Notes: a model not told the origin generated them from the sequence alone. Shown: positions 45,129-64,000, counted from the stretch's first letter. The stretch: 64,000 nt of DNA from Eubacteriales bacterium (GCA_045593725.1 JAZNXE010000026.1:20646-84645), one strand, 5' to 3'. Numbers and translations are program-made.

Positions 45129-45160
45129 ATGCGCAGCTTCGTGCTGCGCATTTTTTATTT
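45129..45160 (+). terminator. Leader (attenuator-type) intrinsic terminator 20 nt upstream of the LRR gene start
   Basis: ATGCGCAGC-ttcgt-GCTGCGCAT followed by TTTTTATTT. The AGGAGGA RBS at 45167-45173 comes next. Confidence 0.7.
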
Positions 45161-45179
45161 ATCATCAGGAGGACAGAAA

Positions 45180-50265: not shown

Positions 50266-51045
50266 ATGAGAAAAGCAATTAAAATATTGATAGCAGACGA
50301 AAACGCATCCGACCGTCAGGCACTGTGTGCGGAGCTTCGCAAGGCGGGATTTACAAATCTTCTTGAAGCAGGAAACGGAGAGGAGGCTCTTATACAAATA
50401 GGCAAAAACCATCCCGACGTAGCCATAATAGACGTGTGGCTGTCAAAGCTGGACGGAATAGGAGTACTCAATAACTGTCAAAATATCAAATTTGCCCCCG
50501 ATAAGCCTCCCGCATTTATAGTAGTATCTATGGTATCCAAGCAAAGCATATTTGTTGAGGCTACAAATTCAGGAGCAGACCTCTGCCTACTTAAGCCTTA
50601 CAACGTAGAAAGCCTTTGTAGGCATATCAATTCCCTTGCCAAGACACGGGACGGAGAAACAGTAGCCGCACCTGAGGACGAAAGCGTTCCCGATATGGAA
50701 TCACAGGTAACAAAGATAATCCACCAGATAGGTGTTCCCGCGCACATAAAGGGATATCAGTATCTACGTACAGCCATTCTCCTTACTATAAAGGACAGCG
50801 ATATTATAAACAGCGTTACCAAAATTCTCTACCCCAGCGTGGCAAAGCAGTATCAGACCACAACCAGCCGAGTTGAGCGCGCCATCCGTCACGCCATCGA
50901 GGTAGCATGGGATAGAGGCGACGTGGATACCCTCAATTCCTATTTTGGTTATACCATTCAAAACAACAGAGGTAAGCCCACAAATAGTGAGTTTATTGCA
51001 ATGATAGCTGATAATTTGAGGCTGAAATATAAGATGTATAAATAA
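50266..51045 (+). CDS. spo0A: Sporulation master regulator Spo0A
   Basis: It has a receiver domain and the signature Spo0A C-terminal domain ([20 protein letters not shown]...[18 protein letters not shown]...[13 protein letters not shown]). Confidence 0.95.
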
Positions 51046-51067
51046 AAGAGGGCTTCTGCCCTCTTTT
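51044..51067. terminator. Bidirectional terminator between convergent spo0A and the carboxypeptidase gene
   Basis: AGAGGGC-ttct-GCCCTCT flanked by AAAA and TTTT. It overlaps both stop codons. Confidence 0.75.
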
Positions 51068-52178
51068 ATTCTGCGTATGTATTATAAATATATTTAACCT
51101 CTTGGGTAGAGATGGACTCTGACAGTCCACTTCCCTTGGGCTTACCGACTATAACGTTTACGTATCCCTTCCCCGTGGTTTTTGACACAGCATAGGAAAC
51201 AAGGCAAACTCCCGCCTCATCGGTATATCCTGTCTTAGCAGCTCTCACAGTAACCGTATTCAACTCTACCTCGCCGTTAAACCGAACAGAGTACCACTCA
51301 CAATGCGCCCAGTAGCTTACAGGCTGTCCGCTGCTGTTCACAGATAGGTCGTTGCTGTTTCCCACGTAGGCAGGTATCTTTCTGGTATCGGTAGAGAGCA
51401 ATATTCTCTTAGCCAACTGGTTCTCAAGCGCGTAAGACATCATTGCCGCCATTTCTCGGCAGGTGGTAACGTGCTCCGTGTGGTGGAGTCCTGTACAGTT
51501 CTTGAAATTAGTTTGATTAAGACCAAGCTCTTCCGCCTTATCGTTCATCATCTCTACGAACCTTGCTTCGCTTCCCGCAATTTCCTTAGCTATCATAAGG
51601 CAGGCAATTGTATCCGATTTGTAGGATATCATATACAGAAGGTCTTCTATTGTAAATCCGTCGCCAAGGGATGACGCCACCAAAAGCCCCGAACCTCCGT
51701 TCTGGTCCTTATAATCGATATCTTCCTGAGTTACCACAAGCTTTTTGTTAAGACTTGTAACGTTCTCACAGGCTACAAGCAGAGTCATTACCTTTGTCAT
51801 TGAGGCGGGGTATATGGTCTGGTCCGCTTCCTTCTCCGCTATGGAGGTATAGCCGCCAAGCTCCACCAGAATGGCATTATTAGACCTGATGCTATCACCT
51901 ATCTGCGCCGCGTTCCCCGAGCTGGTGCTTAAATAGCTGCTTCTACTCGGAATAGTAGGATATAACGCCAACTTGTTGGTATTAGTCACAGGGTCTTTAC
52001 CCGTACCTTGGGGTATATCCTCCATATCGTCATCCTCAATAGCAAGAATAACGAATAGAGAAGCGGTGAGGGCTACCAGCAGTATTATAGTTGTAAAAAG
52101 TATTATAAAATACCCTTTTCCTGGCCATCTCTGCCTTTTTTGTTTTTTTAGTTCCATATATTGTTTAGGCGTAAACAT
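51066..52178 (-). CDS. D-alanyl-D-alanine carboxypeptidase (S11 family, DacB-like)
   Basis: It has an N-terminal TM anchor and the SxxK active site (PASMTKVMT). It is 370 aa long. Confidence 0.8.
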   Translation of the reverse strand: MFTPKQYMELKKQKRQRWPGKGYFIILFTTIILLVALTASLFVILAIEDDDMEDIPQGTGKDPVTNTNKLALYPTIPSRSSYLSTSSGNAAQIGDSIRSNNAILVELGGYTSIAEKEADQTIYPASMTKVMTLLVACENVTSLNKKLVVTQEDIDYKDQNGGSGLLVASSLGDGFTIEDLLYMISYKSDTIACLMIAKEIAGSEARFVEMMNDKAEELGLNQTNFKNCTGLHHTEHVTTCREMAAMMSYALENQLAKRILLSTDTRKIPAYVGNSNDLSVNSSGQPVSYWAHCEWYSVRFNGEVELNTVTVRAAKTGYTDEAGVCLVSYAVSKTTGKGYVNVIVGKPKGSGLSESISTQEVKYIYNTYAE

Positions 52179-52249: not shown

Positions 52250-52286
52250 ATAAAAAATTTGAGGTTGCCGCACAAGCAGCAACCTC
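52250..52286 (-). terminator. Intrinsic terminator closing the 7-gene operon
   Basis: On the minus strand: GAGGTTGC-tgcttgtgcg-GCAACCTC followed by AAATTTTTT. Confidence 0.65.
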
Positions 52287-52298
52287 TTTTTAAGTAAA

Positions 52299-53438
52299 TT
52301 AATCCGCGGTAAGACCCGATCTTTCGATACCCTGTACAAGGTATTTCTGACAGAACAGATACATAACCACCAAGGGAGCAATAACCATAAGTCCCGCGGT
52401 GTTTCTCACAACACCATTATATGCTTCCTGTCCCTTAAAGTTCTTATCTATCAAGGTCTTAGGTACATCCTTCTCTATGAAGTTTATCAGCAGGTAAGGA
52501 GCCTCAAACTCATCAAAGAAAAACATCGTTCTTCCTGTATAGAAGTCATCGGTCCAGCACCAAGAAAAGGCAAACAGGAATACCGTTATCATCATAGGTA
52601 CGGATATAGGAAGAATTATGGTAAAGAATGTACGGAATACACCCGAACCATCTATATAAGCCGACTCCTCAAGCTCATCGGGAACGCCCATAAAGAACTG
52701 ACGAAGTAGGAATATATACAGACCGTTCTTAAAGGCAAGACCTGTCAACGAAAGCAAGATAAAAGGCCACATGGTATTAATGGTATTTATACCGTTGGAG
52801 GTAAACATCTTCCAGCTATCAGGAAATACGTTTATACTTGACAGTATTTCATTGTTAAATTCAAAGCCGAGTATATTTATTCCGCCGCCCTCTAAGAAGC
52901 TGAATATCCCGAAGATATCAAAGCCATTAAATCTTGAAAACATCGCCAGCTGTATTGTTCGGTGAGGTATTACCATAGTTAATATAACCAGTCCAAACAA
53001 CAGCTTGTTGCCCTTAAACCTGAATTTTGCAAATCCGTAAGCTACCAAGCTACATATAAACATCTGTATTAACGCCGTAGTCAATGAAAGACCTAAGGTA
53101 TTCATAAATGCTTCTATGTATTCCTGCTTAAGCCACAGCTCTCTATATATTTCAACAGTGAAGTTCTTCGGAATAAGCTTTACCGAGGAGTCTGCAAGGT
53201 CATACTTTTCCATGAATGAAGCTGCTATCTTTGAGATAAAGGGGAAAAGCACGATATACGCAACACCAACCAGCAGCACGTAACGAACTATCCACCAAAC
53301 GAACTTTTTAAGGAAAAACATCGACAAGAATTTAGCCTTCAGACGTTCTTTAAGAGGTGTTCTTTCAAAATCAACCTTTATTTTTCTCTTACTTTCTTTG
53401 CGAATCTTAGGTTGTTCCATAGTCTTTTCAGAATTCAT
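52299..53438 (-). CDS. ABC transporter permease (MalG/UgpE-like, unusually long at 379 aa), second pair
   Basis: It has the EAA-loop motif ESAYIDGSGVFRTFFTIILPISVP. The RBS is AAGGAGGTG. Confidence 0.8.
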   Translation of the reverse strand: MNSEKTMEQPKIRKESKRKIKVDFERTPLKERLKAKFLSMFFLKKFVWWIVRYVLLVGVAYIVLFPFISKIAASFMEKYDLADSSVKLIPKNFTVEIYRELWLKQEYIEAFMNTLGLSLTTALIQMFICSLVAYGFAKFRFKGNKLLFGLVILTMVIPHRTIQLAMFSRFNGFDIFGIFSFLEGGGINILGFEFNNEILSSINVFPDSWKMFTSNGINTINTMWPFILLSLTGLAFKNGLYIFLLRQFFMGVPDELEESAYIDGSGVFRTFFTIILPISVPMMITVFLFAFSWCWTDDFYTGRTMFFFDEFEAPYLLINFIEKDVPKTLIDKNFKGQEAYNGVVRNTAGLMVIAPLVVMYLFCQKYLVQGIERSGLTAD

Positions 53439-53453
53439 AACTATACACCTCCT

Positions 53454-54449
53454 TTAATTCTTTCTCTGGTAGAAGACATATGCCGAGAATATGGCAGCTA
53501 CCAAGCCGAGTATGCCAATTACCACAAGGAAGTATATCCACGACATTGCCGTAGCAATAGCAATAGAATTCGTTGAACTTCCCGCAAGGTCTCCGGATTT
53601 TATTCCTGTGATATACCGCATCACCGAACTGTTCGTGGTAAATGCGTCAATTACCGTATAAACAGCGTTAACAAGTATCATCGGGCTTATCATAGGGAAT
53701 GTTATTTTCCAGAAGGTCTCCCAAGAGGTCGCACCGTCTATCTGAACCGACTCGTATATCGCGGGGGATATTGACTGCAATCCCGCAAGGAATATCAGCA
53801 TCTGCACTCCCGATCTGTTTACGATATCATAAATACGGTTAATAATATCCGCTACGTATGTAAGCATTCCTTCGCCTATTGCCATTCCCGAGAAAAGCTC
53901 CTGAACGTCAAGTGCCGAAACTATCTGGGTAGCCGCATCCTGTCCCGAGCCGTCATCAATACCTGCGGAGGAGTTCATATAGGTATCTATACTCTGATTT
54001 CCCATGGTATTCATAATACCCGTGGAAAGTATAACGGGAACAAAGAATATCGCTCTGAACACTGCTCTTCCCCCCATCTTCTGGTTAAGCAATACTGCCA
54101 TAAACAGAGAGAACAACAATATCATCGGGATATCAAGTATCATGTCAGTAACACCGGTTATAAGTATCTCAAGAAAGTCAACTCCTTCCTTGGATGTGGC
54201 AGTAAACGCCTGAGCGTAAGACTTCCAACCTACAAACTCCTTGATTATCTCTCCCGTCTTGGGATCCTTGTTACTAAATATCATACTGCTGGAAATGGAA
54301 TCGTAGATCATAGGTATGTATATGAGTATAAATCCTATGACGAAAGGCAGTATAAATATCCAACCTGCGCGAGCCTTTCTCTTGTCAAGAGAGGCATTCT
54401 TTTTTCTTTTTGCGGGTTTGACTTTTTTCAATTCAATCTCGTTAGTCAT
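53454..54449 (-). CDS. ABC transporter permease (MalF/UgpA-like, 331 aa), second pair
   Basis: It has the EAA-loop motif ESVQIDGATSWETFWKITFPMISP. The RBS is AAGGAGAGG. Confidence 0.8.
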   Translation of the reverse strand: MTNEIELKKVKPAKRKKNASLDKRKARAGWIFILPFVIGFILIYIPMIYDSISSSMIFSNKDPKTGEIIKEFVGWKSYAQAFTATSKEGVDFLEILITGVTDMILDIPMILLFSLFMAVLLNQKMGGRAVFRAIFFVPVILSTGIMNTMGNQSIDTYMNSSAGIDDGSGQDAATQIVSALDVQELFSGMAIGEGMLTYVADIINRIYDIVNRSGVQMLIFLAGLQSISPAIYESVQIDGATSWETFWKITFPMISPMILVNAVYTVIDAFTTNSSVMRYITGIKSGDLAGSSTNSIAIATAMSWIYFLVVIGILGLVAAIFSAYVFYQRKN

Positions 54450-54466: not shown

Positions 54467-57400
54467 TTAGTCTAGGATAACATATCCGTATGCGCCTACG
54501 GTATAATATACGTCATTAACAGATACCTTAACAGCGTAATTGTTGAAATTAAGGATAAATGCTGTGCCGTTGGAATAACGCTCATATACTATGGAATTAG
54601 CGGGTACTGCGTACTTATTAAAGCCTTCCTTGGATGCTTCTGTACCGTCATCCTCGTTATTTTCTCCACCACCTATTTCTTCAGCGTATTTATTTTCTAT
54701 CTCAACTACGGTAGCATCTTCCTGCTCATCCGCCATATTGTCAGCAAAGTCCGTAAGCTTATCATACTCTGACTTGGTGCTATCAAGTATATTCTTGAGT
54801 CCTGCTACTATGTCAGGCGTGTAAGCATCGTTCTCTGCGTCGTAAAGCTTATCAAAGTTATCATTAGCAAACTCATATTTTTCGATATAGCCGGCTGCGA
54901 TTTCCTTTGCAAGCGCTACGGTATCCTTATACTCATAGTACTTAGTAAGCATATCCTCAAGTGCCTCGCCATACTTCACCTTTGCATCATCACGTGCCGT
55001 TTGTGCCGCCTGCAGCTGCTCCGGGGTTTTATCGGTAGTAGCTTCAAGGTCCTTAAGAGCCTTATCCGCTTCATCGAGAGCTGTCTCAGCCGCATTCAAA
55101 GCCGCATAAGAGTCGGTAAGCTCGGTGAGCTTCTCGGTCTTGGTGTCATATACCTTCTGCGCAGTCTGGAACTCGGGAGCTACGTACTTTTCCCAATCAA
55201 GCAAATTCTTTCTTATTGCCTGAAGCGTTGCCCTAAGCTCTTCCTTATCCTCAGCGGCATCCTGAATATCCTTGTAGATGGAGTTGAAGAGTTCATTGAA
55301 GGAATCTCCCTCTATTTCATCCGCGTTAGGTATTCTAAGACCGTCTATAAACTGGTGAACGTCAATAGTGCTGGTCTGCACGTCCTTAAGCGCTTTGTTT
55401 ATCTCGGAATAATTAGCTATAAGGTCATCAAGCCAGATATCATAGCGTACAGAGTAATAAACGCTGGTATCCTCGTTTTCCTTGAGCAACGAAGTGTTGC
55501 GGTAAGAAAGAATGAACTTAAGCGCAGATCCATTTTCTATGGCTCTGAGAAGCGCGTAGTCTGTATTTCCTTCCATATTAATGGGAGTTGCCGCTGTCTG
55601 TACGTATCCGTGAAGTACAATTCCAAGGAAAGGAACAGTAGCCGCAGAGCTCGCATGACGGCTGGAGTCGGTAGCTATATCAGTGATATAGTCAACGTAT
55701 TTCCATGAGTAAGCGTTTCCTCCCGAGGTCATTACCTTATTGTAATGCTCGTCAAAATACTTGAAGGAATCTATAACAAATCCCTTGGAGTCCTCGCGAT
55801 GGTAAGGCTCATCCTCATCAAAGTCGGAATTAAGATAAGATGCCATTGTGGAAACTGAAATTCCTATGGGATCGTACTCGCTATAATTCTTAGTCAGCTT
55901 TTCATAGAAGCGGCTAAAGTAAGCAGGGGATATAGCAAGCTCAAAATAGTTGATGTATGCCTGTCTTGAAGCACTGTATTCTCTCTTACTGGTATAGCGG
56001 TCGTCTATGGTCCTCGCCGCGTGGGATATAAGAGAAAGTCCGTCGAACATCTTGTTATCAGAGGCGAAAGCAAAATCGAAGTCAGGGTAGAGTCCAAATC
56101 CATTATCCTTAGCGTACTTCAACAGCTCCTCGAACTTCATCTCCTTTTCCACAGAGTTATCCCAATTTAGGTGATAAGGCACCTGGTCAGTGGTAAGTCC
56201 GCCCTTATTATACCCTGTAAGAATAAAGTTGATGTTCTTTATGTCAGAGCCAGAAAGCTCGTCGTACATCCTCTTAATATCATCAAAGCTTGTGAGAGCC
56301 TTCATGGTATTATATGGAATAGACATAAACTTTTCTGTTGTTTCTATTGCTCCAAAGGTTTCGATGTAAAGAGGTATGTCTGCCTTTACATCGTCATCGG
56401 TAAGCTTTGAGAGAGTTCCGTTATTTATTAAATACTCTCTGTATGCCTTTGCCATTCCAACGTAACTGGTGTCATAATAGCCATCACCCGTCTTTACGTC
56501 AGGGTCGGTAAGCATAGTATAGCGTATTCTGAAGTCTCCTGTGTATTTTCTGGGAGACGCTACAACAAATGCTCCGCTTGTAGCTACTGAGATAGCATTA
56601 GAAAGCTTGTATTCGTCGTATGGTCTAGGAGAAATAGACATACGAACGGTATTATAGTACGTAGAATGGTGCGCCGAGAGCGTCATCAGCGACTCACCCT
56701 CTTCTATAACAGCCAGATATCCTCTCGACCGCTCACTTCCATCCGCAAGTGTCTCATCCTCTACCAAGCCAAACACGGGATACCGAACCACTTGGTTGTG
56801 GGGCGCCTGTGTGTTTATCTTGGAGTAAGCGAAGTCGTGTCCATATACGGAACCGTGGAACAAAGTAGGAGAAGACAGCTTTGCCAGCTCCTCAAAATCG
56901 AACAGAGCGCCTGAACCGTCGGGGAAGAATGTGTATCCCGAGTTAGGATTTGAGCCGGATCCCATATAAGGAAGAATCTCTATATCATCCAAACGGTAAA
57001 TAGATTCATCAAATCTTATACCGTTAGCGGGTACACGGACAGTAAGCCCATCCTTATCAAGGGTATATTCAAGAGATATCTTGAACAGGGGTTCGTTCAT
57101 CTCTCTGGGGCTAACACCAAGCTCAAGATGCTCTGAGTCAATATCCTCAAAGGTATATTCGGGGAAATAGGTCTTTATTATATTTTCAATAGTCGCATAC
57201 TCTCTCTTTGTAGCGCAAGTACACTCGTAGAATACAATGTACTCACCGTTTTCATCCGTCATGTCAGCAAAAGGATATTGTTCAAGATAGGCTTTCTTTT
57301 TCTCTTCCTTCTTTGCTTCATCCTTATACGGTGCCAGCTCCTCGGTAAGACCTCGCTTTTCTATAAATGTAAAGAACTGCCCCTTTTCAAAACTTAACAT

Positions 57401-58066
57401 GGACTCGTTATTCTGGACATCACCGAATTCGCGGTCATAGGTTTCAGCTGTAATAAACTTTGGCACCAGATATCTTGAGTCGGTACGGCCAATCTGATAT
57501 TCAACGCGAATACCGTTCTTTATGTACTTTACGTCAATCTGGCTAGTGGAAAGCTTATCCGTGCTCTGACTATTAAGTTCAGTGTCGCCGCCTCTTACCG
57601 AGTAAGTATAGCTGTTATAGGTCTTAGGGTTGTCACCATCACTTGTATCAACGAAGGATATTATAATCTGCGAAAGCATCTCCGCTTTTGTCTTGTCGTC
57701 TTTAACCTTTGTTCCCAAATCGTATGGATTGGAGAAAAGAACATCCCCGGTTACAACGTTTTCTACCGCAACCTCTCCGCTATAAGCGTCAACGTACAGA
57801 CGATAGCCCTCGTGTTCAAGGCGAAGGTCCATAGTTTCAAGCTTCTGCTGCTTTGTATCTACCGTTACTTCAACGGTACCGTCTTCGCCCTTCTTCTCAT
57901 ATTTACCGTTTAGGTAGTCCATCGTAGGAGCATATTTGCTTGTATTGTACTCATACACGGGTGCGTTAGACTCAGTTGAAGTCTCCTGCGCGCTTACCAC
58001 CATAGACAGAGCACTTATAAGCATCAGAAGCGCTAAGAAAGTCGATATTATTCTTTTAATTAACAT
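54467..58066 (-). CDS. Large secreted protein of unknown function (1199 aa) with a long C-terminal coiled-coil insertion. It may be DUF5696-like, but that rests on recollection only
   Basis: It has a signal peptide (MLIKRIISTFLALLMLISALSMVVSAQE) and a GGAGGAGG RBS. A large globular region is followed by a stretch of about 250 aa rich in Ala/Glu/Lys/Asp. A beta-rich tail follows (AFILNFNNYAVKVSVNDVYYTVGAYGYVILD). Confidence 0.75.
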   Translation of the reverse strand: MLIKRIISTFLALLMLISALSMVVSAQETSTESNAPVYEYNTSKYAPTMDYLNGKYEKKGEDGTVEVTVDTKQQKLETMDLRLEHEGYRLYVDAYSGEVAVENVVTGDVLFSNPYDLGTKVKDDKTKAEMLSQIIISFVDTSDGDNPKTYNSYTYSVRGGDTELNSQSTDKLSTSQIDVKYIKNGIRVEYQIGRTDSRYLVPKFITAETYDREFGDVQNNESMLSFEKGQFFTFIEKRGLTEELAPYKDEAKKEEKKKAYLEQYPFADMTDENGEYIVFYECTCATKREYATIENIIKTYFPEYTFEDIDSEHLELGVSPREMNEPLFKISLEYTLDKDGLTVRVPANGIRFDESIYRLDDIEILPYMGSGSNPNSGYTFFPDGSGALFDFEELAKLSSPTLFHGSVYGHDFAYSKINTQAPHNQVVRYPVFGLVEDETLADGSERSRGYLAVIEEGESLMTLSAHHSTYYNTVRMSISPRPYDEYKLSNAISVATSGAFVVASPRKYTGDFRIRYTMLTDPDVKTGDGYYDTSYVGMAKAYREYLINNGTLSKLTDDDVKADIPLYIETFGAIETTEKFMSIPYNTMKALTSFDDIKRMYDELSGSDIKNINFILTGYNKGGLTTDQVPYHLNWDNSVEKEMKFEELLKYAKDNGFGLYPDFDFAFASDNKMFDGLSLISHAARTIDDRYTSKREYSASRQAYINYFELAISPAYFSRFYEKLTKNYSEYDPIGISVSTMASYLNSDFDEDEPYHREDSKGFVIDSFKYFDEHYNKVMTSGGNAYSWKYVDYITDIATDSSRHASSAATVPFLGIVLHGYVQTAATPINMEGNTDYALLRAIENGSALKFILSYRNTSLLKENEDTSVYYSVRYDIWLDDLIANYSEINKALKDVQTSTIDVHQFIDGLRIPNADEIEGDSFNELFNSIYKDIQDAAEDKEELRATLQAIRKNLLDWEKYVAPEFQTAQKVYDTKTEKLTELTDSYAALNAAETALDEADKALKDLEATTDKTPEQLQAAQTARDDAKVKYGEALEDMLTKYYEYKDTVALAKEIAAGYIEKYEFANDNFDKLYDAENDAYTPDIVAGLKNILDSTKSEYDKLTDFADNMADEQEDATVVEIENKYAEEIGGGENNEDDGTEASKEGFNKYAVPANSIVYERYSNGTAFILNFNNYAVKVSVNDVYYTVGAYGYVILD

Positions 58067-58085: not shown

Positions 58086-60320
58086 TTACATTCTGTATCG
58101 AAGCTCTGTAGCTATATTGGTAACAAAGCTTACAAGCTTTCCAAGAAGTGTCGTAAACAGAATTGCAATAAACATAATACAAATCATTCCGACAATCGTG
58201 GAAATGGTTATTACAACGTTCTTTCCGATACTGTAATCGTGAGTTATCATCATACCGAAGAAGAGCAATATACCAAGCCATATAAATCCGAGCGCTGTTA
58301 TCAGAGAAACCGTCTTAAGCTCCGCCTGAACAACAAAGTTGGACGCCAGTGTTGCGGGAACAATCGTAAGTATCAACGGCATCAAGGAATAAGTACAAGC
58401 GATATAAATATCCTTGAAGTTTCCTTCACCGTCAAATAGTGTAGTAAGGCACCAGTTAGCTATCATAAAGAGAGCCAAGGGAACGCACAAGCTGGTAAGT
58501 GCCTCAAAGAAGGACAGGTAATTGCCCTGAGGATTTGAAACGTAACCCGCTCCTACAGATTGATAGTAGAATACAAGCACCGCAACTGCGAGTATAGTTG
58601 AACCCGCCCTTACCGAGCCTCTCTTTTCGTGCTTCAAATCCCAGAATCCGTCAAAGGGATGCATAATGAGGTGGAATACAAAGAGCAGTTCCTGTACGTA
58701 GGTTCTCTTTCCAACGGCAGTCGCTGTTTCCTTGTTCACCTTGTTAGCATATTTCATAAACTTAGAAAGCGCGAAGCAAAGAACAAACACTATAATAGGA
58801 ATTGTCCACAGATACTTGGATATCCACTGCTGTCTTAATTCGGTATAGGTAGTTGAGTAGTTAGCAACATCGTATGCGTTCTTATACTGGTCTATTGCCT
58901 TAGTGTACTCGTGACTTCTATAATACGCATTACCCATTCCAATATAAGCTGCATCGAAGTTAGAGTTTCTCTTAATAACCTCTTGCCAGTCATTTATTGC
59001 ATCGTCATATCTACGGTTATTCTGATTTTCAATAGCTCCCATAAGCACGTTTCCGTAGGGAGTTCTTTCATAAACCGTAAACGAACCCGCATCAGAGTGT
59101 CCGTCAAGGAGAAGCATATCGGTTCCCTGATATACTATCGCTTCTGCCTTCTCGATATTTCCAAGAAGCGCTCCTTTATCACCGAAGGCAAAGAGCAGAT
59201 TTCCGTCAAAATCGTATGTAAATACCTTGCTTCTCTCCTGGTCAATTATTGACCAAGTATTCTCAGGACCAACCGCAACGTCAACTATTCTGGAAGGTCC
59301 TACGTACGTAGCGTCATCAGAGTTAATAGCGTTGAAGAAATCAACTTCTCCTGAAGGTGGATAAAATCCGTTTCTTCTCATAAGCTCTGATCCCGCTGCG
59401 TTAAGCATTCTTACAGGAGCAAAGTCTCCGCTCTTGCTCTTATTCCTGATAGCATTAGCTACGTCATCTGTATTGGAAAGGGTAATAGTAGCGTACACAA
59501 AGTCCCCTGCCAGTGCAATGTTATTAAACGGAGGTGCAATTTCCTTGGAATTACTAATCTTCTGCTCTTCTGTCTGGAATCTTCTCCAGATTTTGTCCCA
59601 AAGGGACAGCGAGCTCTTCTGAGCACCGATATATCCGGTAAACTCTCCCTCCTCGGTTATTACCTCGATACCACCCGTAGAGTTACTATTTACGACGTAA
59701 AGTCTGTCGTATCTGTCAACGGCTACTGCGATTGGCATATAGTCGGATGATGCATCAAGAATCTCAGATTTAGGCTTTCCTATCTCCTTAATGAACTTTC
59801 CATCCAGATCGAACACAAGAATTCTTGCGTTACCGGTATCGCATACGTAAATCTTACCGGGAACACCAACACCGTTTACTGTCTTAGAAGCAGAAACAAA
59901 TATTCCCTCAGGAGAATTAAACGTGTCACTGTTTCCATTTGCGTTATCAAAGGTATGTATAACATTCTTTACCGCATAATAAGGGTCGAGTATTATAACT
60001 CTGCCGTTGGCCTTATCAACAACATATACGTTATTGTTTTCATCCACCTCAAGGTCAACGAGGCCAAGCTTGGCTTTCGCAATGTTCTCAAGCTCTTCTT
60101 CAGTCTTGTTAGGATAAAATTGTGAAAGCTTCTCCGTATCCTTAAGGCCCATATACTCTGTGTCTATCTCGGCCTCAGGCGTATAAGCGTGAGGCGAATG
60201 GAGTGCTGTTCCCGATATTGAATATGTGTAAGTGTAATACGATGTTGCTGCGCTTATAGGAAGAGACAAAAGCATTACAACAACGAACACTATACATAAA
60301 ATAGATGTTGTCTTTTTCAT
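58086..60320 (-). CDS. Signal peptide + NHL-repeat beta-propeller + TPR + C-terminal Yip1-type polytopic membrane domain (744 aa)
   Basis: The NHL-like blades include YVVDKANGRVIILD, IYVCDTGNARILVFD and LYVVNSNSTGGIEVI. The TPR-like segment is YDDAINDWQEVIKRNSNFDAAYIGMGNAYYRSHEYTKAIDQYKNAY. The last 230 aa or so hold about 6 TM helices. Confidence 0.75.
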   Translation of the reverse strand: MKKTTSILCIVFVVVMLLSLPISAATSYYTYTYSISGTALHSPHAYTPEAEIDTEYMGLKDTEKLSQFYPNKTEEELENIAKAKLGLVDLEVDENNNVYVVDKANGRVIILDPYYAVKNVIHTFDNANGNSDTFNSPEGIFVSASKTVNGVGVPGKIYVCDTGNARILVFDLDGKFIKEIGKPKSEILDASSDYMPIAVAVDRYDRLYVVNSNSTGGIEVITEEGEFTGYIGAQKSSLSLWDKIWRRFQTEEQKISNSKEIAPPFNNIALAGDFVYATITLSNTDDVANAIRNKSKSGDFAPVRMLNAAGSELMRRNGFYPPSGEVDFFNAINSDDATYVGPSRIVDVAVGPENTWSIIDQERSKVFTYDFDGNLLFAFGDKGALLGNIEKAEAIVYQGTDMLLLDGHSDAGSFTVYERTPYGNVLMGAIENQNNRRYDDAINDWQEVIKRNSNFDAAYIGMGNAYYRSHEYTKAIDQYKNAYDVANYSTTYTELRQQWISKYLWTIPIIVFVLCFALSKFMKYANKVNKETATAVGKRTYVQELLFVFHLIMHPFDGFWDLKHEKRGSVRAGSTILAVAVLVFYYQSVGAGYVSNPQGNYLSFFEALTSLCVPLALFMIANWCLTTLFDGEGNFKDIYIACTYSLMPLILTIVPATLASNFVVQAELKTVSLITALGFIWLGILLFFGMMITHDYSIGKNVVITISTIVGMICIMFIAILFTTLLGKLVSFVTNIATELRYRM

Positions 60321-60336: not shown

Positions 60337-61209
60337 TTAATCCTTCATACCACTGGAGCCCATAGTCTCAATGATATTTGACTGCGATACAACGAATACC
60401 AAAATAGGTACTAGCATCATTACCACGGTTGCCGCCGCACTGGCACCGGCACGTCTTATACCGCCCGCGGTTATCTGACCTATTGCATAGTTGAGCGATT
60501 TGAGCTGCTCGGAGTGTATGTATATACTCGAACCCTGATTCCAGAGTCCCTGGAATGAGTACACTATAAGTGTAAGCCAACCGGGCTTTACCATAGGCAT
60601 AGCTATAACCCAGAAGGTCCTAAACTCGCCCGCGCCGTCAAGTCTGGCACTCTCAAGCACTGAATCATTAACGTTGGATTCCATAAACTGCTTCATCAGG
60701 TAAAGTCCCAACGTAGAGCCCCACGCGGGAACTATAATAGCCCAATAGGTATCAACCATTCCCAAAGCACTCATAAGAATGAAGCTACAAAGTGCCGTTA
60801 CCGTCTGGTGGAACATAAGAGAGGTCTGTACCGTCTTAAACATAAGCTTTCCGCCGGGGAACTTTATCTTTGCAAGAGCGTAAGCCGCAAGCGACGCGAA
60901 GAGAAGGTGTCCCAGAGTACCTGCAAATGATGTAAACACCGTGTTGAATATGTAACGTGAGAAAGGCACCATATTTCCACTCATCAGGGTAAACAGGTCC
61001 TTAAAGTTCTTACCCGTGGGAGCTACTACGTAGAATCTTGGGGGGAACATCCAAAGCTCGTCAAGAGGTTTAAACGCCTGTATTATACAATAATACATAG
61101 GAAGCACCATGAATACTCCGAGCAAAGCAAGGATAACCGTGATACCCGCGTCTCCGCTTCTGGATCGAGCAAATACAACTTTATGTTTTCTTGTTCTTAA
61201 CTTTGCCAT
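60337..61209 (-). CDS. Carbohydrate-type ABC transporter permease (MalG/UgpE-like, 290 aa), first pair
   Basis: It has the EAA-loop motif ESARLDGAGEFRTFWVIAMPMVKP. It lies 1 nt after the upstream stop. Confidence 0.85.
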   Translation of the reverse strand: MAKLRTRKHKVVFARSRSGDAGITVILALLGVFMVLPMYYCIIQAFKPLDELWMFPPRFYVVAPTGKNFKDLFTLMSGNMVPFSRYIFNTVFTSFAGTLGHLLFASLAAYALAKIKFPGGKLMFKTVQTSLMFHQTVTALCSFILMSALGMVDTYWAIIVPAWGSTLGLYLMKQFMESNVNDSVLESARLDGAGEFRTFWVIAMPMVKPGWLTLIVYSFQGLWNQGSSIYIHSEQLKSLNYAIGQITAGGIRRAGASAAATVVMMLVPILVFVVSQSNIIETMGSSGMKD

Positions 61210-61210
61210 A

Positions 61211-62158
61211 TCACGATCCTACCTTTGAAATTATCTTCTTAACAAGCATATTTGAGCCTATCATTATCACGAACAGAACTACGGCTATGGCAGAGGCGTA
61301 ACCGGTTTCAAATCTGATTCCTCCGTAGTCATCGAGGTGGTGAACTATGGTATGCGCCGCATAGTCAACAGACGGGAATCCGCAAAGAGCTGTAACGACT
61401 CCGCCAAATCCGAACGCGCCGGTAATAGCCATAATAGCACCAAACATAAGCTGATTCTTCATATTTGGAAGCGTTATGTAATAAAGCTCCTGCCATCTGT
61501 TCTTAATACCGTCAACCGCACCTGCCTCAAACTGCGCCTTGTCTATTCCCTGAAGACCCGCGATAAACGCAAGGAAGGATGTTCCCAGCGAGGTCCAGAG
61601 GGCAACCACAATACACAAGGGCATTACGTAATCCGCATCCTGGAAGAATACAATCTCTTCATTTATTATTCCCAGCTCCAAAAGCCATGCGTTTACCCAA
61701 CCGTAGCGGTCACCCGAGAAAAGTGTACCCCAGATAAGATATACCTGACCCGATATAGAGGGAGCATAGAATACGAGGGTTACGATAGCTCTTATTCTCG
61801 GTGAAAGCTCGTTGATAAACCAAGCAACCAAGAAGGACATTATGTACGAAACAGGTCCAACGATGGCGGCAAATATCAAAGTGTTCTGACAAGCTATGAT
61901 GAATATATCATCGTCAAGGAAAAGTCTTATATAGTTATCGAACCATATAAAATCAGGAACCTGCAACAGGTTAAAGTTAGTAAAGCTTATAACCAGTGAA
62001 AGTACGACAGGAAGGACGGTAAAGCAGGTAAAGATGAGCATATACGGTGCTACCATCAGGTACGCCACCTTATTTCTCTTCATTTCGTGCCATGTCCATT
62101 GCGCCATCGTCATATCCTTGCGCACCACAGCTTTCTTTTTCGCTGTATTTTGTGACAT
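61211..62158 (-). CDS. Sugar-type ABC transporter permease (MalF/UgpA-like, 315 aa), first pair
   Basis: It has the EAA-loop motif EAGAVDGIKNRWQELYYITLPNMKN. The RBS is AAGGAG. Confidence 0.85.
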   Translation of the reverse strand: MSQNTAKKKAVVRKDMTMAQWTWHEMKRNKVAYLMVAPYMLIFTCFTVLPVVLSLVISFTNFNLLQVPDFIWFDNYIRLFLDDDIFIIACQNTLIFAAIVGPVSYIMSFLVAWFINELSPRIRAIVTLVFYAPSISGQVYLIWGTLFSGDRYGWVNAWLLELGIINEEIVFFQDADYVMPLCIVVALWTSLGTSFLAFIAGLQGIDKAQFEAGAVDGIKNRWQELYYITLPNMKNQLMFGAIMAITGAFGFGGVVTALCGFPSVDYAAHTIVHHLDDYGGIRFETGYASAIAVVLFVIMIGSNMLVKKIISKVGS

Positions 62159-62186: not shown

Positions 62187-64000
62187 TTATTTGTAAGCTT
62201 CATAGGATCTAAGGCACTTAGCCGCTTGCTCCAGATAGTCAGCCGCCTTGGCAAACAACGCCGAGTTAAGTGACTTAAGCTCCTCGGCATAGGCTTCAAG
62301 CGCTCCGTAATCCTGTGTCTTATAATCTCTCAATTCTTTCATTAAAGAATTATATACATTGTCATAAGCCGAGGTATAGCGGCTGTCGCTCTTAGCAATC
62401 TCCAGCTCCTCCTCTGCCTGTTGCATACGCTTTATTGCGAGAGTGGACTGTTTTTTATCCTTATCAAGGGTTTCAAGATCGAACTCGTCACGCTTTCTCG
62501 TGATCTCGTCGTTAATGTAATCTATATATCCCAGAAGGCTCTCTACGGGGTTAAGATTATCGTTGTAAGCATCAAGGAACGCGAATCCCGTATAACGCGA
62601 TATAATATACGCGCCGGGATAGTTAGGAACTGCGGCAAGATTATCAAATTGAAGCTTTATCTGCTCGTATTCCTCACGGGTCCAAGGCAAGCTCTCGAGC
62701 GCCGTAGAGTTAGCGGTAGGATGCTTTGCTGAAGGACCGAGAATAGCAACCATTTCGTTGGAGTAGTCGGTCTGGCAATCCGCGCCCACATACCATCTCA
62801 TAAATTTCCATGCATCCTGCTTCCGCTCTGTACCGGATATCATTACCACCGCGCTGACTCCCGAAACGGTCTCAAAATTTATATCACCGTTTTCATCCTC
62901 CATACCCGGCAGCGGATAGAAGGACCAAAGGCCCTCAATCTCAGTAGCGAAAACCTTAAGGTGATTATACGTTCCTGTATAATCCGCAAATCCTATGGGC
63001 ATCTCACCCGTTCTGAAACGGTTAGCGAAGTTATACTGATATGGGAAGGAGTACATAGTGAACATCTCGCACATACTCTCAAAAGCGGTAAGCGCCAGAT
63101 TCGAATCGAGGTTGATTCTCATACCTCCGTCAGCAAAAAGCTCACCGCCCATCTGGTACAGGAAGATATTACTATCGTTGCTCATTGCGATTTCCATGTT
63201 ATTAGCCTGGAGAACAGGAACAGCTTCCTTAACGTCATTCCAAGTCTTGGGAACCTCCAAGTCAAGCTCTGCAAGGATATCCTCGCGAACAAACATCATT
63301 GAGAACGTTTGCGTTTCAGGGAGTCCGTAACAGTGTAGCTGACCCGTGCCGCACTGCTGATGCTCCTCAGCATCTCCGTTAGTACCAGCACATTCTATTC
63401 TAAGCACCATCATGGCGCTCTGATTAAAGTTCGAGCAGGCTTCGTCATAGCCTTCCATGGTCTCTATGGACTCAAGGGCGCCTCTGATAGCGTAGTTAAT
63501 AGTATCACCCGCGCCAAGTCCCAGATAAACGTCAGGACCCTGTCCCGATAATATAGAAGGAAGCAGAGTTCCCGCCGCAACCAGCTTAAGGTTGACTGTA
63601 ATGTTACTGCTGGGAGTAAAGTTATTGTTTATAAGGTTTCTGATAACCTGTGATTGGTCACGTCCGTAAGCCAACCAAACCTCAACGCTCTCATCCGAAT
63701 CCTCCTCGGTAAGAGCGCCCATTCTGTCGTACTTACGGAAGAAGCTCTGGAAGAAGCCCGATATTTCGTGCCACAGCGCTTCAAAGAATCCCGCTCTCGC
63801 TCTGGGATCCTCCTCATCAACCGCCTGTATGGAAATAAAGTCAAGAAGGAGAGGCTGTGTCTTCGCGTTGCCTATCCATGTACCGAGAGAACCAATATAT
63901 GTTTTAAGCTGCTCCATATTTTTAGCAACTTCTTCTTCATCCCTTGCCATCTCCTCAAGAAGCTCAGCAACGTTTATCAGCGTAGCTGTCATAGAGCTCT
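62187..64000 (-). CDS. Large extracellular solute-binding-like protein, 5' end beyond the right edge of the window (more than 604 codons visible)
   Basis: A family-1 SBP-like core (VEVWLAYGRDQSQV...LPSILSGQGPDVYLGLG...WSFYPLPG...) is followed by a helical tail of about 90 aa. The frame is still open at 64000, so the ATG at 63992 is not the true start. Confidence 0.75.
   Translation of the reverse strand, partial: SSMTATLINVAELLEEMARDEEEVAKNMEQLKTYIGSLGTWIGNAKTQPLLLDFISIQAVDEEDPRARAGFFEALWHEISGFFQSFFRKYDRMGALTEEDSDESVEVWLAYGRDQSQVIRNLINNNFTPSSNITVNLKLVAAGTLLPSILSGQGPDVYLGLGAGDTINYAIRGALESIETMEGYDEACSNFNQSAMMVLRIECAGTNGDAEEHQQCGTGQLHCYGLPETQTFSMMFVREDILAELDLEVPKTWNDVKEAVPVLQANNMEIAMSNDSNIFLYQMGGELFADGGMRINLDSNLALTAFESMCEMFTMYSFPYQYNFANRFRTGEMPIGFADYTGTYNHLKVFATEIEGLWSFYPLPGMEDENGDINFETVSGVSAVVMISGTERKQDAWKFMRWYVGADCQTDYSNEMVAILGPSAKHPTANSTALESLPWTREEYEQIKLQFDNLAAVPNYPGAYIISRYTGFAFLDAYNDNLNPVESLLGYIDYINDEITRKRDEFDLETLDKDKKQSTLAIKRMQQAEEELEIAKSDSRYTSAYDNVYNSLMKELRDYKTQDYGALEAYAEELKSLNSALFAKAADYLEQAAKCLRSYEAYK

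What the first reader, a model, noticed from the sequence alone, without database searches (positions are those of the whole stretch)
54467..58066. 1199-aa secreted protein: a large globular region with no catalytic signature I can recognise, interrupted near the C-terminus by about 250 aa of coiled coil
The protein has a clean Sec signal peptide. Roughly 850 aa of mixed alpha/beta sequence follow. Segments such as YTFFPDGSGALFDFEE and INFILTGYNKGGLTTDQVPYHLNW are reminiscent of TIM-barrel glycosidase accessory regions but are not diagnostic. A low-complexity A/E/K/D-rich heptad-like stretch then begins with ...AEDKEELRATLQAIRKNLLDWEKY and runs on through ...LDEADKALKDLEATTDKTPEQLQAAQTARDDAKVKY... 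A short beta-rich terminal segment closes the protein. A coiled-coil spacer inserted before a terminal beta-sandwich is unusual. It is mirrored by a helical tail on the SBP-like protein of the same operon (62187-62460), which suggests that the two interact.
Basis: partly seen in the sequence, partly recalled or inferred. Interest (0 to 1): 0.55.

Follow-up and report, generated by a model that had tools for sequence, protein, structure and literature searches.

The report
Glycosidase-like secreted protein with helical arm
This is a secreted protein of the uncharacterised family DUF5696, predicted to fold like an alpha-glycosidase, that carries a helical arm of very variable length and sits in a seven-gene sugar-transporter operon conserved across hundreds of gut Clostridia species, so it is probably a new sugar-cleaving enzyme family whose activity nobody has tested.

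Summary
The ORF is real: 1199 aa, at 54467-58066, but on the minus strand. Its globular part is Pfam DUF5696 (E 1.9e-138), a family with no known function. No enzyme family or solved structure matches by sequence.

AlphaFold2 models (pLDDT 78) match retaining alpha-glycosidases by fold. The best match is the GH129-like DagB (E 8e-19), followed by GH129 NagBb, GH36, GH101 and GH31. Sequence identity is only about 11%.

The "coiled coil" (aa 913-1145) is real. It consists of long helices with 3.5-residue periodicity (8 of 2000 shuffles reach it). It is an insertion inside the C-terminal beta-sandwich, not a spacer in front of it. Across about 70 species the insertion ranges from 9 to 971 aa. It is absent in Butyrivibrio and Paenibacillus homologues.

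The gene is fifth in a strictly syntenic seven-gene operon: giant SBP, two permeases, NHL-TPR-Yip1, DUF5696, two permeases. This order is conserved from Paenibacillus to gut Clostridia.

The SBP's helical tail is absent in the same two outgroups, and its length correlates with insert length. That is suggestive of an interaction but does not prove one.

Most likely this is an extracellular alpha-glycan-processing enzyme coupled to ABC import. Its activity, its substrate and the arm's partner are all untested.

The parts
54467..58066 (-). Gene for the 1199-aa DUF5696 protein (stop codon included)
   Evidence: ORF list and translation. Pfam DUF5696 at E 1.9e-138. At least 1439 full-length homologues.
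57989..58066 (-). Signal peptide, aa 1-26 (MLIKRIISTFLALLMLISALSMVVSA|QE)
   Evidence: Single N-terminal hydrophobic segment at 6-24. Ala at -1 is nearly invariant across homologues. Cleavage is inferred, not predicted by a dedicated tool.
57107..57988 (-). N-terminal extension, aa 27-320: beta-sandwich strands plus a helical subdomain, outside the Pfam model
   Evidence: AF2 secondary structure, pLDDT mostly 80-93. Aligns to the Butyrivibrio homologue from aa 79 but is largely absent in Paenibacillus.
55346..57106 (-). DUF5696 Pfam match, aa 321-907: second part of the N-terminal beta-sandwich and the (beta/alpha)8 barrel
   Evidence: Pfam. Foldseek matches to DagB (GH129-like), GH129, GH36, GH101 and GH31. 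This is the most conserved region, with a mean top-residue frequency of 0.70-0.77.
54632..55330 (-). Helical insertion, aa 913-1145: four to five long helices followed by an acidic linker at about 1131-1145
   Evidence: AF2 helices. 3.5-residue periodicity. Coiled-coil-type PDB and Pfam hits only. Length varies from 9 to 971 aa in homologues. Least conserved part of the protein, 0.36.
54467..54631 (-). Terminal beta segment, aa 1146-1199, which completes the C-terminal beta-sandwich begun by strands 900-910
   Evidence: AF2 strands 1158-1196. Conserved motif NGTAFILNFNNY, with N1172 conserved even in Butyrivibrio and Paenibacillus. Contiguous with the preceding strands in homologues that lack the insert.
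58086..60320 (-). Upstream gene: 744-aa protein with a signal peptide, NHL beta-propeller, TPR and a C-terminal Yip1 membrane domain
   Evidence: Pfam Yip1 at 9.8e-14, plus NHL and TPR. Hydrophobic segments at 7-25, 500-518 and five more between 576 and 720. Present next to DUF5696 in 82 of 83 loci.
60337..62158 (-). First permease pair: 315 aa at 61211-62158 (MalF/UgpA-like) and 290 aa at 60337-61209 (MalG/UgpE-like)
   Evidence: Pfam BPD_transp_1 and NCBIfam UgpA/UgpE-like hits. EAA loops present.
62187..64000 (-). C-terminal 601+ aa of the giant solute-binding-like protein; the gene runs off the window
   Evidence: SBP_bac_8 and SBP_bac_1. The frame stays open to the window end. Full-length relatives are 990-1250 aa.
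62187..62510 (-). Tail of the SBP-like protein that reads as helical (last ~107 aa)
   Evidence: Sequence. Absent in the Butyrivibrio and Paenibacillus SBPs. Length correlates with the DUF5696 insert. No significant heptad signal.
52299..54449 (-). Second permease pair: 331 aa at 53454-54449 and 379 aa at 52299-53438
   Evidence: BPD_transp_1 and MalF/MalG-like hits. EAA loops present; the two are paralogous to the first pair.
52261..52286 (-). Terminator-like hairpin that closes the seven-gene operon
   Evidence: 11-bp stem with 7 GC pairs followed by a T-run, 13 nt after the stop of the last permease gene. Intergenic gaps within the operon are 1-28 nt.

Best explanation
The gene encodes a secreted member of the uncharacterised family DUF5696.

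Its conserved body (aa ~40-912 plus 1146-1199) is predicted to have three domains: an N-terminal beta-sandwich, a (beta/alpha)8 barrel and a C-terminal beta-sandwich. This is the architecture of retaining alpha-glycosidases of the GH129, GH101, GH36 and GH31 type.

I propose that it is an extracellular alpha-glycan-cleaving, or possibly transglycosylating, enzyme. It would form the enzymatic arm of a seven-gene surface module. In this model the enzyme trims a polymeric or oligomeric glycan outside the cell. The giant SBP-like protein, which has a faint CBM35-like N-terminal part, captures the products. Two type-I ABC permease pairs import them, energised by a shared MsmK/UgpC-type ATPase encoded elsewhere. 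The NHL-TPR-Yip1 membrane protein acts as an accessory or scaffold subunit.

The 233-aa helical block is a lineage-specific insertion of very variable length in a loop of the C-terminal beta-sandwich. Because both ends of an insertion must meet, it most likely forms an out-and-back antiparallel helical arm rather than a linear stalk. Its most likely role is docking or spacing within the module, possibly against the SBP's tail.

Shown here: family membership, fold class, the insertion topology and its variability, and operon conservation.

Inferred: catalysis, alpha-linkage specificity, coupling to import, and the arm's partner.

My rough probabilities are 0.85 for a glycosidase-fold DUF5696 protein in an ABC import module, 0.5 for an active glycosidase, and 0.3 for an arm that binds the SBP tail.
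For: - Family: Pfam DUF5696 at 463 bits.
- Fold: two AF2 models (pLDDT 78; pTM 0.66 and 0.74). Foldseek against the PDB gives 5opq DagB (GH129-like) at E 6.6e-17 and 7.8e-19 with target-normalised TM 0.56-0.58. NagBb (GH129) scores E 1e-11 to 1e-14, GH36 1e-9, GH101 7e-8 and GH31 1e-9 to 1e-5, all at probability 1.0. DagB has the same three-domain layout (PMC5698469).
- Conservation: the barrel is the most conserved part (0.77). All invariant acidic and polar barrel residues lie in the loops that follow the strands: D661, D674, H681, D747, D749, E750, R756, N783, N829 and E831. D382, D410, D674, D747, H818, N829 and E843 persist in the homologues that are only 26-28% identical.
- Insertion: its length ranges from 9 to 971 aa, while the ~53-aa terminal strand segment is always kept. 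Butyrivibrio and Paenibacillus have no insert.
- Operon: gaps are 1-28 nt and a terminator follows the last gene. Synteny is strict in 83 loci. The Butyrivibrio and Paenibacillus plasmids carry the same module; the latter has ugpC immediately upstream and the former has a GH43 gene next door.
- Transport: all four permeases carry EAA loops, and the SBP domain is family 1/8.
- Family size: 3975 clusters at 50% identity, and at least 532 matched stretches in the species-representative genome collection.
Against: - No sequence-level link to any glycoside hydrolase family. Pfam returns only DUF5696 at E<=10, PDB sequence and profile searches are empty for the globular part, and hhalign against E. 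coli YihQ finds nothing.
- TM-scores are moderate (0.43 normalised by query, 0.56 by target) and RMSD is 9-10 A.
- The loops holding the best catalytic candidates have pLDDT below 50 (aa 744-752 and 780-808).
- Foldseek gave no residue-level superposition, so no catalytic residue is mapped.
- The higher density of invariant residues on the catalytic face is not significant (0.22 against 0.13, Fisher p 0.17).
- No ABC ATPase lies in the operon or among the window ORFs that were scanned.
- There is only one SBP for two permease pairs.
- No substrate clue comes from neighbouring genes, which are housekeeping and differ between species.
- The mature protein has no recognisable anchor, so attachment to the cell surface is assumed.
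Confidence: 0.55

Rival explanations
1. The protein is a non-catalytic, glycosidase-derived receptor. DUF5696 has kept the fold but works as a glycan-binding or substrate-delivery subunit. It would stand in for the missing second solute-binding protein and dock onto the second permease pair.
For: - Gene order is SBP-perm-perm, then NHL/Yip1-DUF5696-perm-perm. DUF5696 therefore sits where an SBP gene normally precedes its permeases, and the module has one SBP for two complete permease pairs.
- No glycoside hydrolase sequence signature is present.
- Several subfamily-invariant acids (D661, D749, D791, D795, E831) are not kept in the Butyrivibrio or Paenibacillus proteins.
Against: - The barrel is the most conserved region, and D382, D410, D674, D747, H818 and E843 survive down to 26% identity. 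This pattern is more typical of a catalytic centre than of a binding surface.
- The Butyrivibrio locus has two additional SBP genes just downstream, so SBPs for the second pair may simply be encoded elsewhere.
- To my knowledge, no glycosidase-fold protein is known to replace an SBP.
Confidence: 0.2
2. The module serves the cell's own envelope rather than nutrition. It would recycle or remodel an endogenous cell-wall or capsular glycopolymer, with DUF5696 as the trimming enzyme and the ABC systems recovering the fragments.
For: - The module lies among housekeeping genes and next to Spo0A and a D-Ala-D-Ala carboxypeptidase in the window.
- It is near-universal and strictly syntenic across a large lineage, whereas nutrient loci tend to be patchy.
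- No regulator, other CAZyme or sugar-catabolic gene is linked in the gut Clostridia loci.
Against: - Flanking genes are not conserved between species: PBP and Spo0A co-occur in only 1 of 83 loci, and GalT in none.
- In Butyrivibrio the module sits beside a GH43 gene and extra sugar SBPs. In Paenibacillus it sits beside ugpC, on large plasmids. Both are typical nutrient-acquisition settings.
Confidence: 0.15
3. The helical block is a parallel, intermolecular homo-oligomeric coiled-coil stalk. It would dimerise the enzyme or project a separate terminal domain, without involving the SBP.
For: - Heptad periodicity stays in phase over 218 residues.
- PDB and Pfam similarities are to coiled-coil proteins.
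- DagB and many GH36 and GH31 enzymes are oligomers (PMC5698469).
Against: - The segment is an insertion between strands of a single small beta-sandwich. With 9-aa linkers, or no insert at all, the flanks are contiguous. The chain must therefore return to its starting point, which favours an antiparallel hairpin or bundle. This fits the AF2 pattern of 30-60-residue helices separated by short turns.
- The 900-aa inserts look like non-repetitive all-alpha sequence rather than a uniform stalk.
Confidence: 0.1

Closest known systems
DagB / ZGAL_3152 of Zobellia galactanivorans (GH129-like exo-alpha-1,3-(3,6-anhydro)-D-galactosidase, PDB 5OPQ)
   Same: It is the best structural match (Foldseek E 7.8e-19, target-normalised TM 0.56). 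[quoted passage not shown]
   Different: - Identity is about 11%, with no sequence-level hit.
- DagB is 693 aa, periplasmic, from a Bacteroidota carrageenan PUL.
- The protein here is 1199 aa, with an extra ~290-aa N-terminal extension and a 233-aa helical insertion in the last domain.
- Equivalence of DagB's catalytic residues (D486, E517, and D202 from the partner subunit) could not be tested.
NagBb of Bifidobacterium bifidum (GH129 alpha-N-acetylgalactosaminidase, PDB 5WZN/5WZP) and the related GH101 endo-alpha-GalNAc-ases
   Same: Second-best fold match (E 1e-11 to 1e-14, target-normalised TM 0.53-0.59). GH101 also matches, at E 7e-8. NagBb is an enzyme of a Gram-positive gut bacterium and acts on alpha-linked sugars (PMC8106489).
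   Different: - Identity is about 10%.
- No match to the Pfam models of these families.
- NagBb uses Ca2+ and a Trp platform. Whether the invariant acidic loop SDFDEDEP (aa 746-753) plays a similar role is speculation.
- None of these enzymes has a helical insertion, and none is encoded in an ABC operon of this kind.
Clan GH-D alpha-glycosidases (GH36 alpha-galactosidases, GH31 alpha-glucosidases and sulfoquinovosidase YihQ)
   Same: Same overall three-domain fold class, with Foldseek E 1e-9 to 1e-5. The 73-residue spacing between the deeply conserved D674 and D747 resembles the nucleophile-to-acid/base spacing in these families. That comparison rests on my own knowledge (AgaA D478/D548, YihQ D405/D472).
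   Different: - TM-scores are lower (0.25-0.43).
- The GH31 and GH36 Pfam models do not match.
- hhalign against E. coli YihQ finds nothing.
CUT1-type carbohydrate ABC importers (MalEFGK2, UgpBAEC)
   Same: Both permease pairs are MalF/UgpA-like plus MalG/UgpE-like and have EAA loops. The SBP domain is family 1/8. A UgpC-type ATPase is adjacent in Paenibacillus.
   Different: - There are two permease pairs but only one SBP.
- The SBP is 990-1250 aa, with a large N-terminal extension and a tail that reads as helical.
- No ATPase is encoded in the operon.
- Two extra obligatory partners, NHL-TPR-Yip1 and DUF5696, lie between the permease pairs.
YknWXYZ of Bacillus (an ABC transporter with a Yip1-family fourth subunit)
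   Same: It is a precedent for a bacterial Yip1-family membrane protein serving as an accessory component of an ABC transporter (PMC4887032, listed).
   Different: YknYZ is a MacB-type exporter for the SDP toxin, not a binding-protein-dependent importer. YknW has no NHL or TPR ectodomain. The relationship here is by analogy only and was not tested.

Membership tests
Pfam DUF5696 (PF18952) | Score above the curated gathering threshold (25.6 bits) over most of the model | tested here: met
   463.1 bits, E 1.9e-138; model positions 15-576 of 612 on aa 321-907.
CAZy GH129 (including the GH129-like DagB group) | Significant sequence similarity to family members | tested here: not met
   phmmer and a profile hmmsearch against all PDB sequences, which include 5OPQ and 5WZN, give no hit for the globular part. 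Identity in the Foldseek alignments is 10-12%.
CAZy GH129 (including the GH129-like DagB group) | N-terminal beta-sandwich, (beta/alpha)8 barrel and C-terminal beta-sandwich architecture | tested here: met
   Foldseek probability 1.0, E down to 7.8e-19, target-normalised TM 0.53-0.59. The DSSP order of elements fits.
CAZy GH129 (including the GH129-like DagB group) | Catalytic Asp nucleophile and Glu acid/base at equivalent positions (NagBb D435/E478; DagB D486/E517) | tested here: inconclusive
   The tools gave no residue-level superposition. D747 and D674 are deeply conserved and lie in loops that follow barrel strands, but the assignment is an inference.
CAZy GH129 (including the GH129-like DagB group) | Retaining alpha-glycosidase activity | not testable with these tools
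   Needs biochemistry.
Clan GH-D (GH27/GH31/GH36) | Match to family sequence models or signature motifs | tested here: not met
   No Glyco_hydro_31 or Melibiase hit even at E<=10. hhalign of the family alignment against YihQ gives probability 0.2.
Clan GH-D (GH27/GH31/GH36) | Shared fold | tested here: met
   GH36 and GH31 structures match at E 1e-9 to 1e-5 with probability 1.0, but TM is only 0.25-0.43.
Binding-protein-dependent (type I) carbohydrate ABC importer module | Two transmembrane subunits with EAA coupling loops | tested here: met
   All four permeases have BPD_transp_1 and an EAA-like loop. They form two MalF-like/MalG-like pairs.
Binding-protein-dependent (type I) carbohydrate ABC importer module | Cognate extracellular solute-binding protein | tested here: met
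   SBP_bac_8 at 3.3e-16 and SBP_bac_1 at 3e-14 in the upstream gene.
Binding-protein-dependent (type I) carbohydrate ABC importer module | ABC ATPase subunit | tested here: not met
   None in the operon or among the window ORFs scanned. ugpC is adjacent only in Paenibacillus. Shared orphan ATPases are common for this transporter class, by my own knowledge.
Coiled coil | Heptad (3.5-residue) hydrophobic periodicity over long helices | tested here: met
   Spectrum peak at 3.48. Power 44.7 against 8.9 +/- 8.9 in shuffles; 8 of 2000 shuffles reach it. AF2 helices are 30-60 residues long. No dedicated coiled-coil predictor was available.
Coiled coil | Oligomeric state and strand orientation | not testable with these tools
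   Only monomer prediction was available and no coordinates were returned. Antiparallel, intramolecular packing is inferred from the insertion topology.

The most novel reading that the evidence does not exclude
The seven genes may encode one stable surface machine, a Gram-positive counterpart of the Bacteroidota Sus 'utilisome'. In this reading, an enzyme from a new glycoside hydrolase family is held at the mouth of two ABC importers. It would be tethered by a hetero-helical bundle formed between its variable arm and the tail of a giant, CBM-bearing solute-binding protein. The NHL-TPR-Yip1 protein would be the membrane scaffold. Arm length would be tuned lineage by lineage, from 9 to 971 aa, to the thickness or architecture of the envelope.
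Probability: 0.2. Interest if true: 0.75.

Novelty: new variant of a known kind. Interest (0 to 1): 0.5.

Why it matters
DUF5696 is a large family. It has about 4000 clusters at 50% identity, and relatives were found at 532 or more places in a collection holding one genome per species, mostly uncultured gut and rumen Clostridia. No paper in the searchable library mentions it.

Placing it in the fold class of retaining alpha-glycosidases turns a DUF into a testable candidate for a new glycoside hydrolase family. Showing that it always travels with one giant SBP, two permease pairs and an NHL-Yip1 protein defines a conserved seven-part uptake module. That module can be studied in culturable carriers (Butyrivibrio fibrisolvens, Paenibacillus cellulosilyticus).

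The helical arm inserted into a small beta-sandwich varies about 100-fold in length, which makes it an unusual natural experiment in domain insertion.

If the module proves to be a physically coupled enzyme-transporter complex, it would change how glycan capture by Gram-positive gut bacteria is pictured. If not, this remains an ordinary, though uncharacterised, secreted glycosidase.

Tried and rejected
- Plus-strand translation of the given coordinates is full of stop codons. The gene is on the minus strand.
- Sequence routes to a known enzyme family all failed. NCBIfam returned nothing. PDB phmmer returned only keratin-type noise at E>0.6. The PDB profile search returned only coiled-coil hits for 906-1136. 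Pfam at E<=10 on three fragments returned only DUF5696 and sub-threshold coiled-coil noise. hhalign of the 51-sequence alignment against E. coli YihQ (GH31) gave probability 0.2.
- Literature searches for 'DUF5696', 'PF18952' and Yip1 combined with SBP, glycoside hydrolase and permease found nothing relevant.
- I considered whether the SufC/SufB-like pair upstream of the module in relatives supplies the missing ATPase. I rejected this because the pair is adjacent in only about 18 of 83 loci, belonging to one clade, and it looks like a minimal Fe-S assembly pair.
- I considered a link to the nearby GalT, Spo0A and PBP genes. I rejected it because these genes are not syntenic in other loci.
- I considered homology between the insert and the SBP tail. 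BLASTP shows none.
- I looked for Pfam domains inside the 340-970-aa inserts and found none. Other long-insert proteins give only sub-threshold coiled-coil-type hits.
- Testing whether invariant residues are enriched on the catalytic face of the barrel showed a trend only (p 0.17).
- I could not obtain model coordinates or residue-level Foldseek alignments. Catalytic residues are therefore not mapped, and packing of the terminal strands against strands 900-910 is inferred from natural variants that lack the insert.

Full report
**Observation**

The coordinates 54467-58066 hold one uninterrupted ORF of 1199 codons, but on the minus strand; the plus-strand frame is full of stops.

The N-terminus is MLIKR, then a single hydrophobic stretch at 6-24, then VSA|QE. 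It reads as a Gram-positive Sec signal peptide, and Ala at -1 is nearly invariant in 51 homologues. I had no signal-peptide predictor, so cleavage is inferred. The hydrophobic core is fairly well conserved (0.62), so a retained signal anchor cannot be excluded.

**Family and fold**

That holds at the sequence level, with one addition: aa 321-907 match Pfam DUF5696 at 463 bits (E 1.9e-138). This family has no assigned function and is not mentioned in any paper in the searchable library.

Other sequence searches gave nothing for the globular part:
- NCBIfam has no match.
- phmmer and a 51-sequence profile against all PDB sequences find nothing.
- Pfam at E<=10 adds no glycosidase family.

I built an alignment of 51 full-length homologues at 45-83% identity and predicted the structure. 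The model has pLDDT 78.0 and pTM 0.66. A second model of aa 35-912 alone has pLDDT 78.2 and pTM 0.74.

Foldseek against the PDB gave a coherent list for both models:

| Match | E-value | Notes |
|---|---|---|
| GH129-like 3,6-anhydro-D-galactosidase DagB (5OPQ) | 6.6e-17 and 7.8e-19 | target-normalised TM 0.56-0.58 |
| GH129 alpha-N-acetylgalactosaminidase NagBb | 1e-11 to 1e-14 | target-normalised TM 0.53-0.59 |
| GH36 alpha-galactosidases | ~1e-9 | |
| GH101 | 7e-8 | |
| GH31 enzymes | 1e-9 to 1e-5 | |

All matches have probability 1.0 and about 10-12% identity. [quoted passage not shown] The order of secondary-structure elements here is the same.

So the globular region belongs to the fold class of retaining alpha-glycosidases. 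It fails the sequence criterion for membership of any of those families.

**Is it likely to be an enzyme?**

The barrel is the most conserved part of the protein, with a mean top-residue frequency of 0.77, against 0.36 for the helical block. Every invariant acidic or polar barrel residue lies in a loop that follows a barrel strand, which is the catalytic face of TIM barrels. These are D661, D674, H681, S746-D747-F748-D749-E750, R756, N783, N829-M830-E831 and N856. The difference in invariant-residue density between the two faces is only a trend (0.22 against 0.13, p 0.17).

I added the Butyrivibrio and Paenibacillus homologues, which are 26-28% identical. The polar residues that survive are E332, E353, D382, D410, R542, D674, D747, R756, N783, H818, N829, E843, W877, H903 and N1172.

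D747 sits in the loop after the fourth barrel strand. D674 lies 73 residues upstream, and by my own knowledge that spacing resembles the GH36 and GH31 catalytic pairs. These two are my best catalytic candidates. The assignment is an inference for two reasons: these loops have pLDDT below 50, and the tools gave no residue-level superposition. hhalign against E. coli YihQ was uninformative.

**The helical block**

AlphaFold2 predicts helices at 914-960, 975-1008, 1014-1073, 1083-1112 and 1117-1130. An acidic, disordered linker follows, then five short strands at 1158-1196. The hydrophobicity spectrum of 913-1130 peaks at period 3.48. Its power at 3.5 is reached by 8 of 2000 shuffles, while a barrel control scores below the shuffle mean. 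The only PDB and Pfam similarities are to coiled-coil or helical-bundle proteins. The observation therefore stands, at about 233 aa rather than 250.

In ORFs from 83 related loci, I located the positions equivalent to residue 912 and to the start of the terminal beta segment. The stretch between them ranges from 9-10 aa (L050, L053, L055), through 65-74, ~200-330 and 340-590, up to 814-971 aa (for example L038). Meanwhile a terminal segment of ~50-65 aa is always retained.

Inserts longer than the 9-10-aa linkers are rich in A, E, D, K and L and mostly poor in Pro and Gly. Five proteins with inserts from 9 to 971 aa show no Pfam domain beyond DUF5696, and the one 971-aa insert checked has no internal repeats. 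In Butyrivibrio and Paenibacillus the flanking strands are contiguous (…IVSHELLSEDLVKVTYDNGTRIYVNYS…).

The two strands at 900-910 and the five at 1158-1196 therefore form one small beta-sandwich, equivalent to the ~70-aa Ig-like C-domain of DagB. The helices are an insertion in one of its loops. An insertion must return to its starting point, which favours an antiparallel helical arm over a linear parallel stalk.

**Genomic setting**

The gene is fifth of seven minus-strand genes separated by 1-28 nt. A strong terminator-like hairpin at 52286-52261 closes the operon. The order is:

1. The SBP-like protein. Only its last 601 aa fall inside the window, and the frame runs off the end.
2. A MalF-like and a MalG-like permease.
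3. A 744-aa protein with a signal peptide, NHL propeller, TPR, one transmembrane helix and a five-helix Yip1 domain.
4. DUF5696.
5. A second MalF-like and MalG-like permease pair.

All four permeases keep the EAA loop. No ABC ATPase lies in the operon or among the window ORFs scanned, which are housekeeping genes: Mfd, PPDK, AlaRS, BipA, RecJ, Spo0A and a D-Ala-D-Ala carboxypeptidase.

The seven-gene order is kept in every one of 83 loci wherever the contig reaches far enough. All are uncultured gut or rumen Clostridia, and flanking genes differ between them. The permeases are more conserved (52-89% identity) than DUF5696 (38-52%).

The annotated plasmids of Butyrivibrio fibrisolvens and Paenibacillus cellulosilyticus carry the same module. 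In Butyrivibrio, NHL and YIP1 are separate genes, a GH43 gene lies upstream and two SBP genes lie downstream. In Paenibacillus, ugpC lies immediately upstream.

The family is large. It has 3975 clusters at 50% identity, with protein lengths from about 930 to 2545 aa among the full-length entries listed.

**The proposed interaction with the SBP tail**

Points in favour:
- The SBP's tail of about 105 aa, which reads as helical, and the DUF5696 insert are both missing in Butyrivibrio and Paenibacillus.
- Across 59 loci the two lengths correlate, with Spearman 0.80.
- Independent contrasts on a rough permease tree give r 0.51-0.57.

Points against:
- Only 10-11 of the 19 largest contrasts agree in sign.
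- A few clades drive the signal.
- L050 and L055 combine a 9-aa insert with a 92-aa tail.
- The tail grows only from ~104 to ~150 aa while the insert grows from ~250 to ~920.
- The tail shows no significant heptad signal.
- The two segments share no sequence similarity.

I rate the interaction as plausible, at about 0.3, and untested.

**Mechanism and rivals**

My best reading is an extracellular alpha-glycan-processing enzyme that feeds a dedicated double ABC importer. The arm would act as a docking or spacing element. Three alternatives remain:
- A glycosidase-derived, non-catalytic receptor that stands in for a second SBP. This is suggested by its SBP-like position in front of the second permease pair.
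- A module that recycles the cell's own envelope glycans.
- A homo-oligomeric coiled-coil stalk.

None is excluded. The submitted fields list the evidence and the refutation test for each.

**Novelty and score**

The protein is a clear member of an existing but uncharacterised Pfam family. I found no published description of its glycosidase fold class, of the insertion topology with its roughly 100-fold length variation, or of the invariant seven-gene module.

I could not run dbCAN. A recent CAZy family built on DUF5696 would lower the novelty.

I classify it as a new variant of a known kind and score interest at 0.5. It is a solid candidate for a new glycoside hydrolase family with an unusual transporter partnership, but it has no demonstrated activity or interaction.

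Noticed in passing
window 62187-64000 (-); L001 2242-5829; L002 2429-5899: The 'SBP-like protein' is cut off by the window end. Full-length relatives are 990-1250 aa with an N-terminal hydrophobic anchor. They carry ~570-740 aa of unassigned sequence before the SBP domain, including a faint CBM35-like stretch (E 0.069, below threshold). Scanned whole, the full-length proteins give no Pfam hit; scanned as fragments, the SBP domain is found.
   Followed up: partly
window 58086-60320 (-); L085 6201-8296: The NHL-TPR-Yip1 protein is a single 744-aa gene here and in Paenibacillus. In Butyrivibrio fibrisolvens it is split into an NHL-repeat gene and a separate YIP1 gene. The ectodomain and the membrane domain are therefore separable modules.
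   Followed up: no
L001 1-1595; L002 16-1648 and about 16 further loci: A SufC-like ABC ATPase and a 305-aa SufB/D-core protein lie directly upstream of the module in one clade of relatives (about 18 of 83 loci). It is probably a minimal Fe-S assembly pair rather than the transporter's ATPase. The window ends before this position, so it cannot be checked here.
   Followed up: partly
window 50266-51045 (+) and 51066-52178 (-): Spo0A and a Peptidase_S11 D-Ala-D-Ala carboxypeptidase lie immediately downstream of the operon, which marks the source as a spore-forming Clostridia member. This neighbourhood recurs in only one related locus (L043).
   Followed up: partly
window 45129-47249 (+): A 706-aa protein made of BspA-type leucine-rich repeats (LRR_5, E 3.7e-158), typical of surface proteins of gut anaerobes.
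   Followed up: no
window 47939-49438 (-): A galactose-1-phosphate uridylyltransferase (GalT) gene lies about 3 kb from the operon. It is not near the module in any of the 83 related loci, so it gives no support for a galactoside substrate.
   Followed up: yes
window 52299-53438 (-): The last permease (379 aa) is unusually long for a MalG-type subunit. Its BPD_transp_1 match is split by an insertion of about 60 aa (roughly aa 180-240). The EAA loop is intact.
   Followed up: no
L038 9983-15988; L027, L028, L041, L056 and others: In one clade the DUF5696 insert reaches 814-971 aa, giving proteins of 1850-2000 aa. In the 971-aa insert that was checked, the sequence is non-repetitive, Ala/Leu/Glu-rich and has no Pfam domain. 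It may be a folded all-alpha domain rather than a simple coiled coil.
   Followed up: partly
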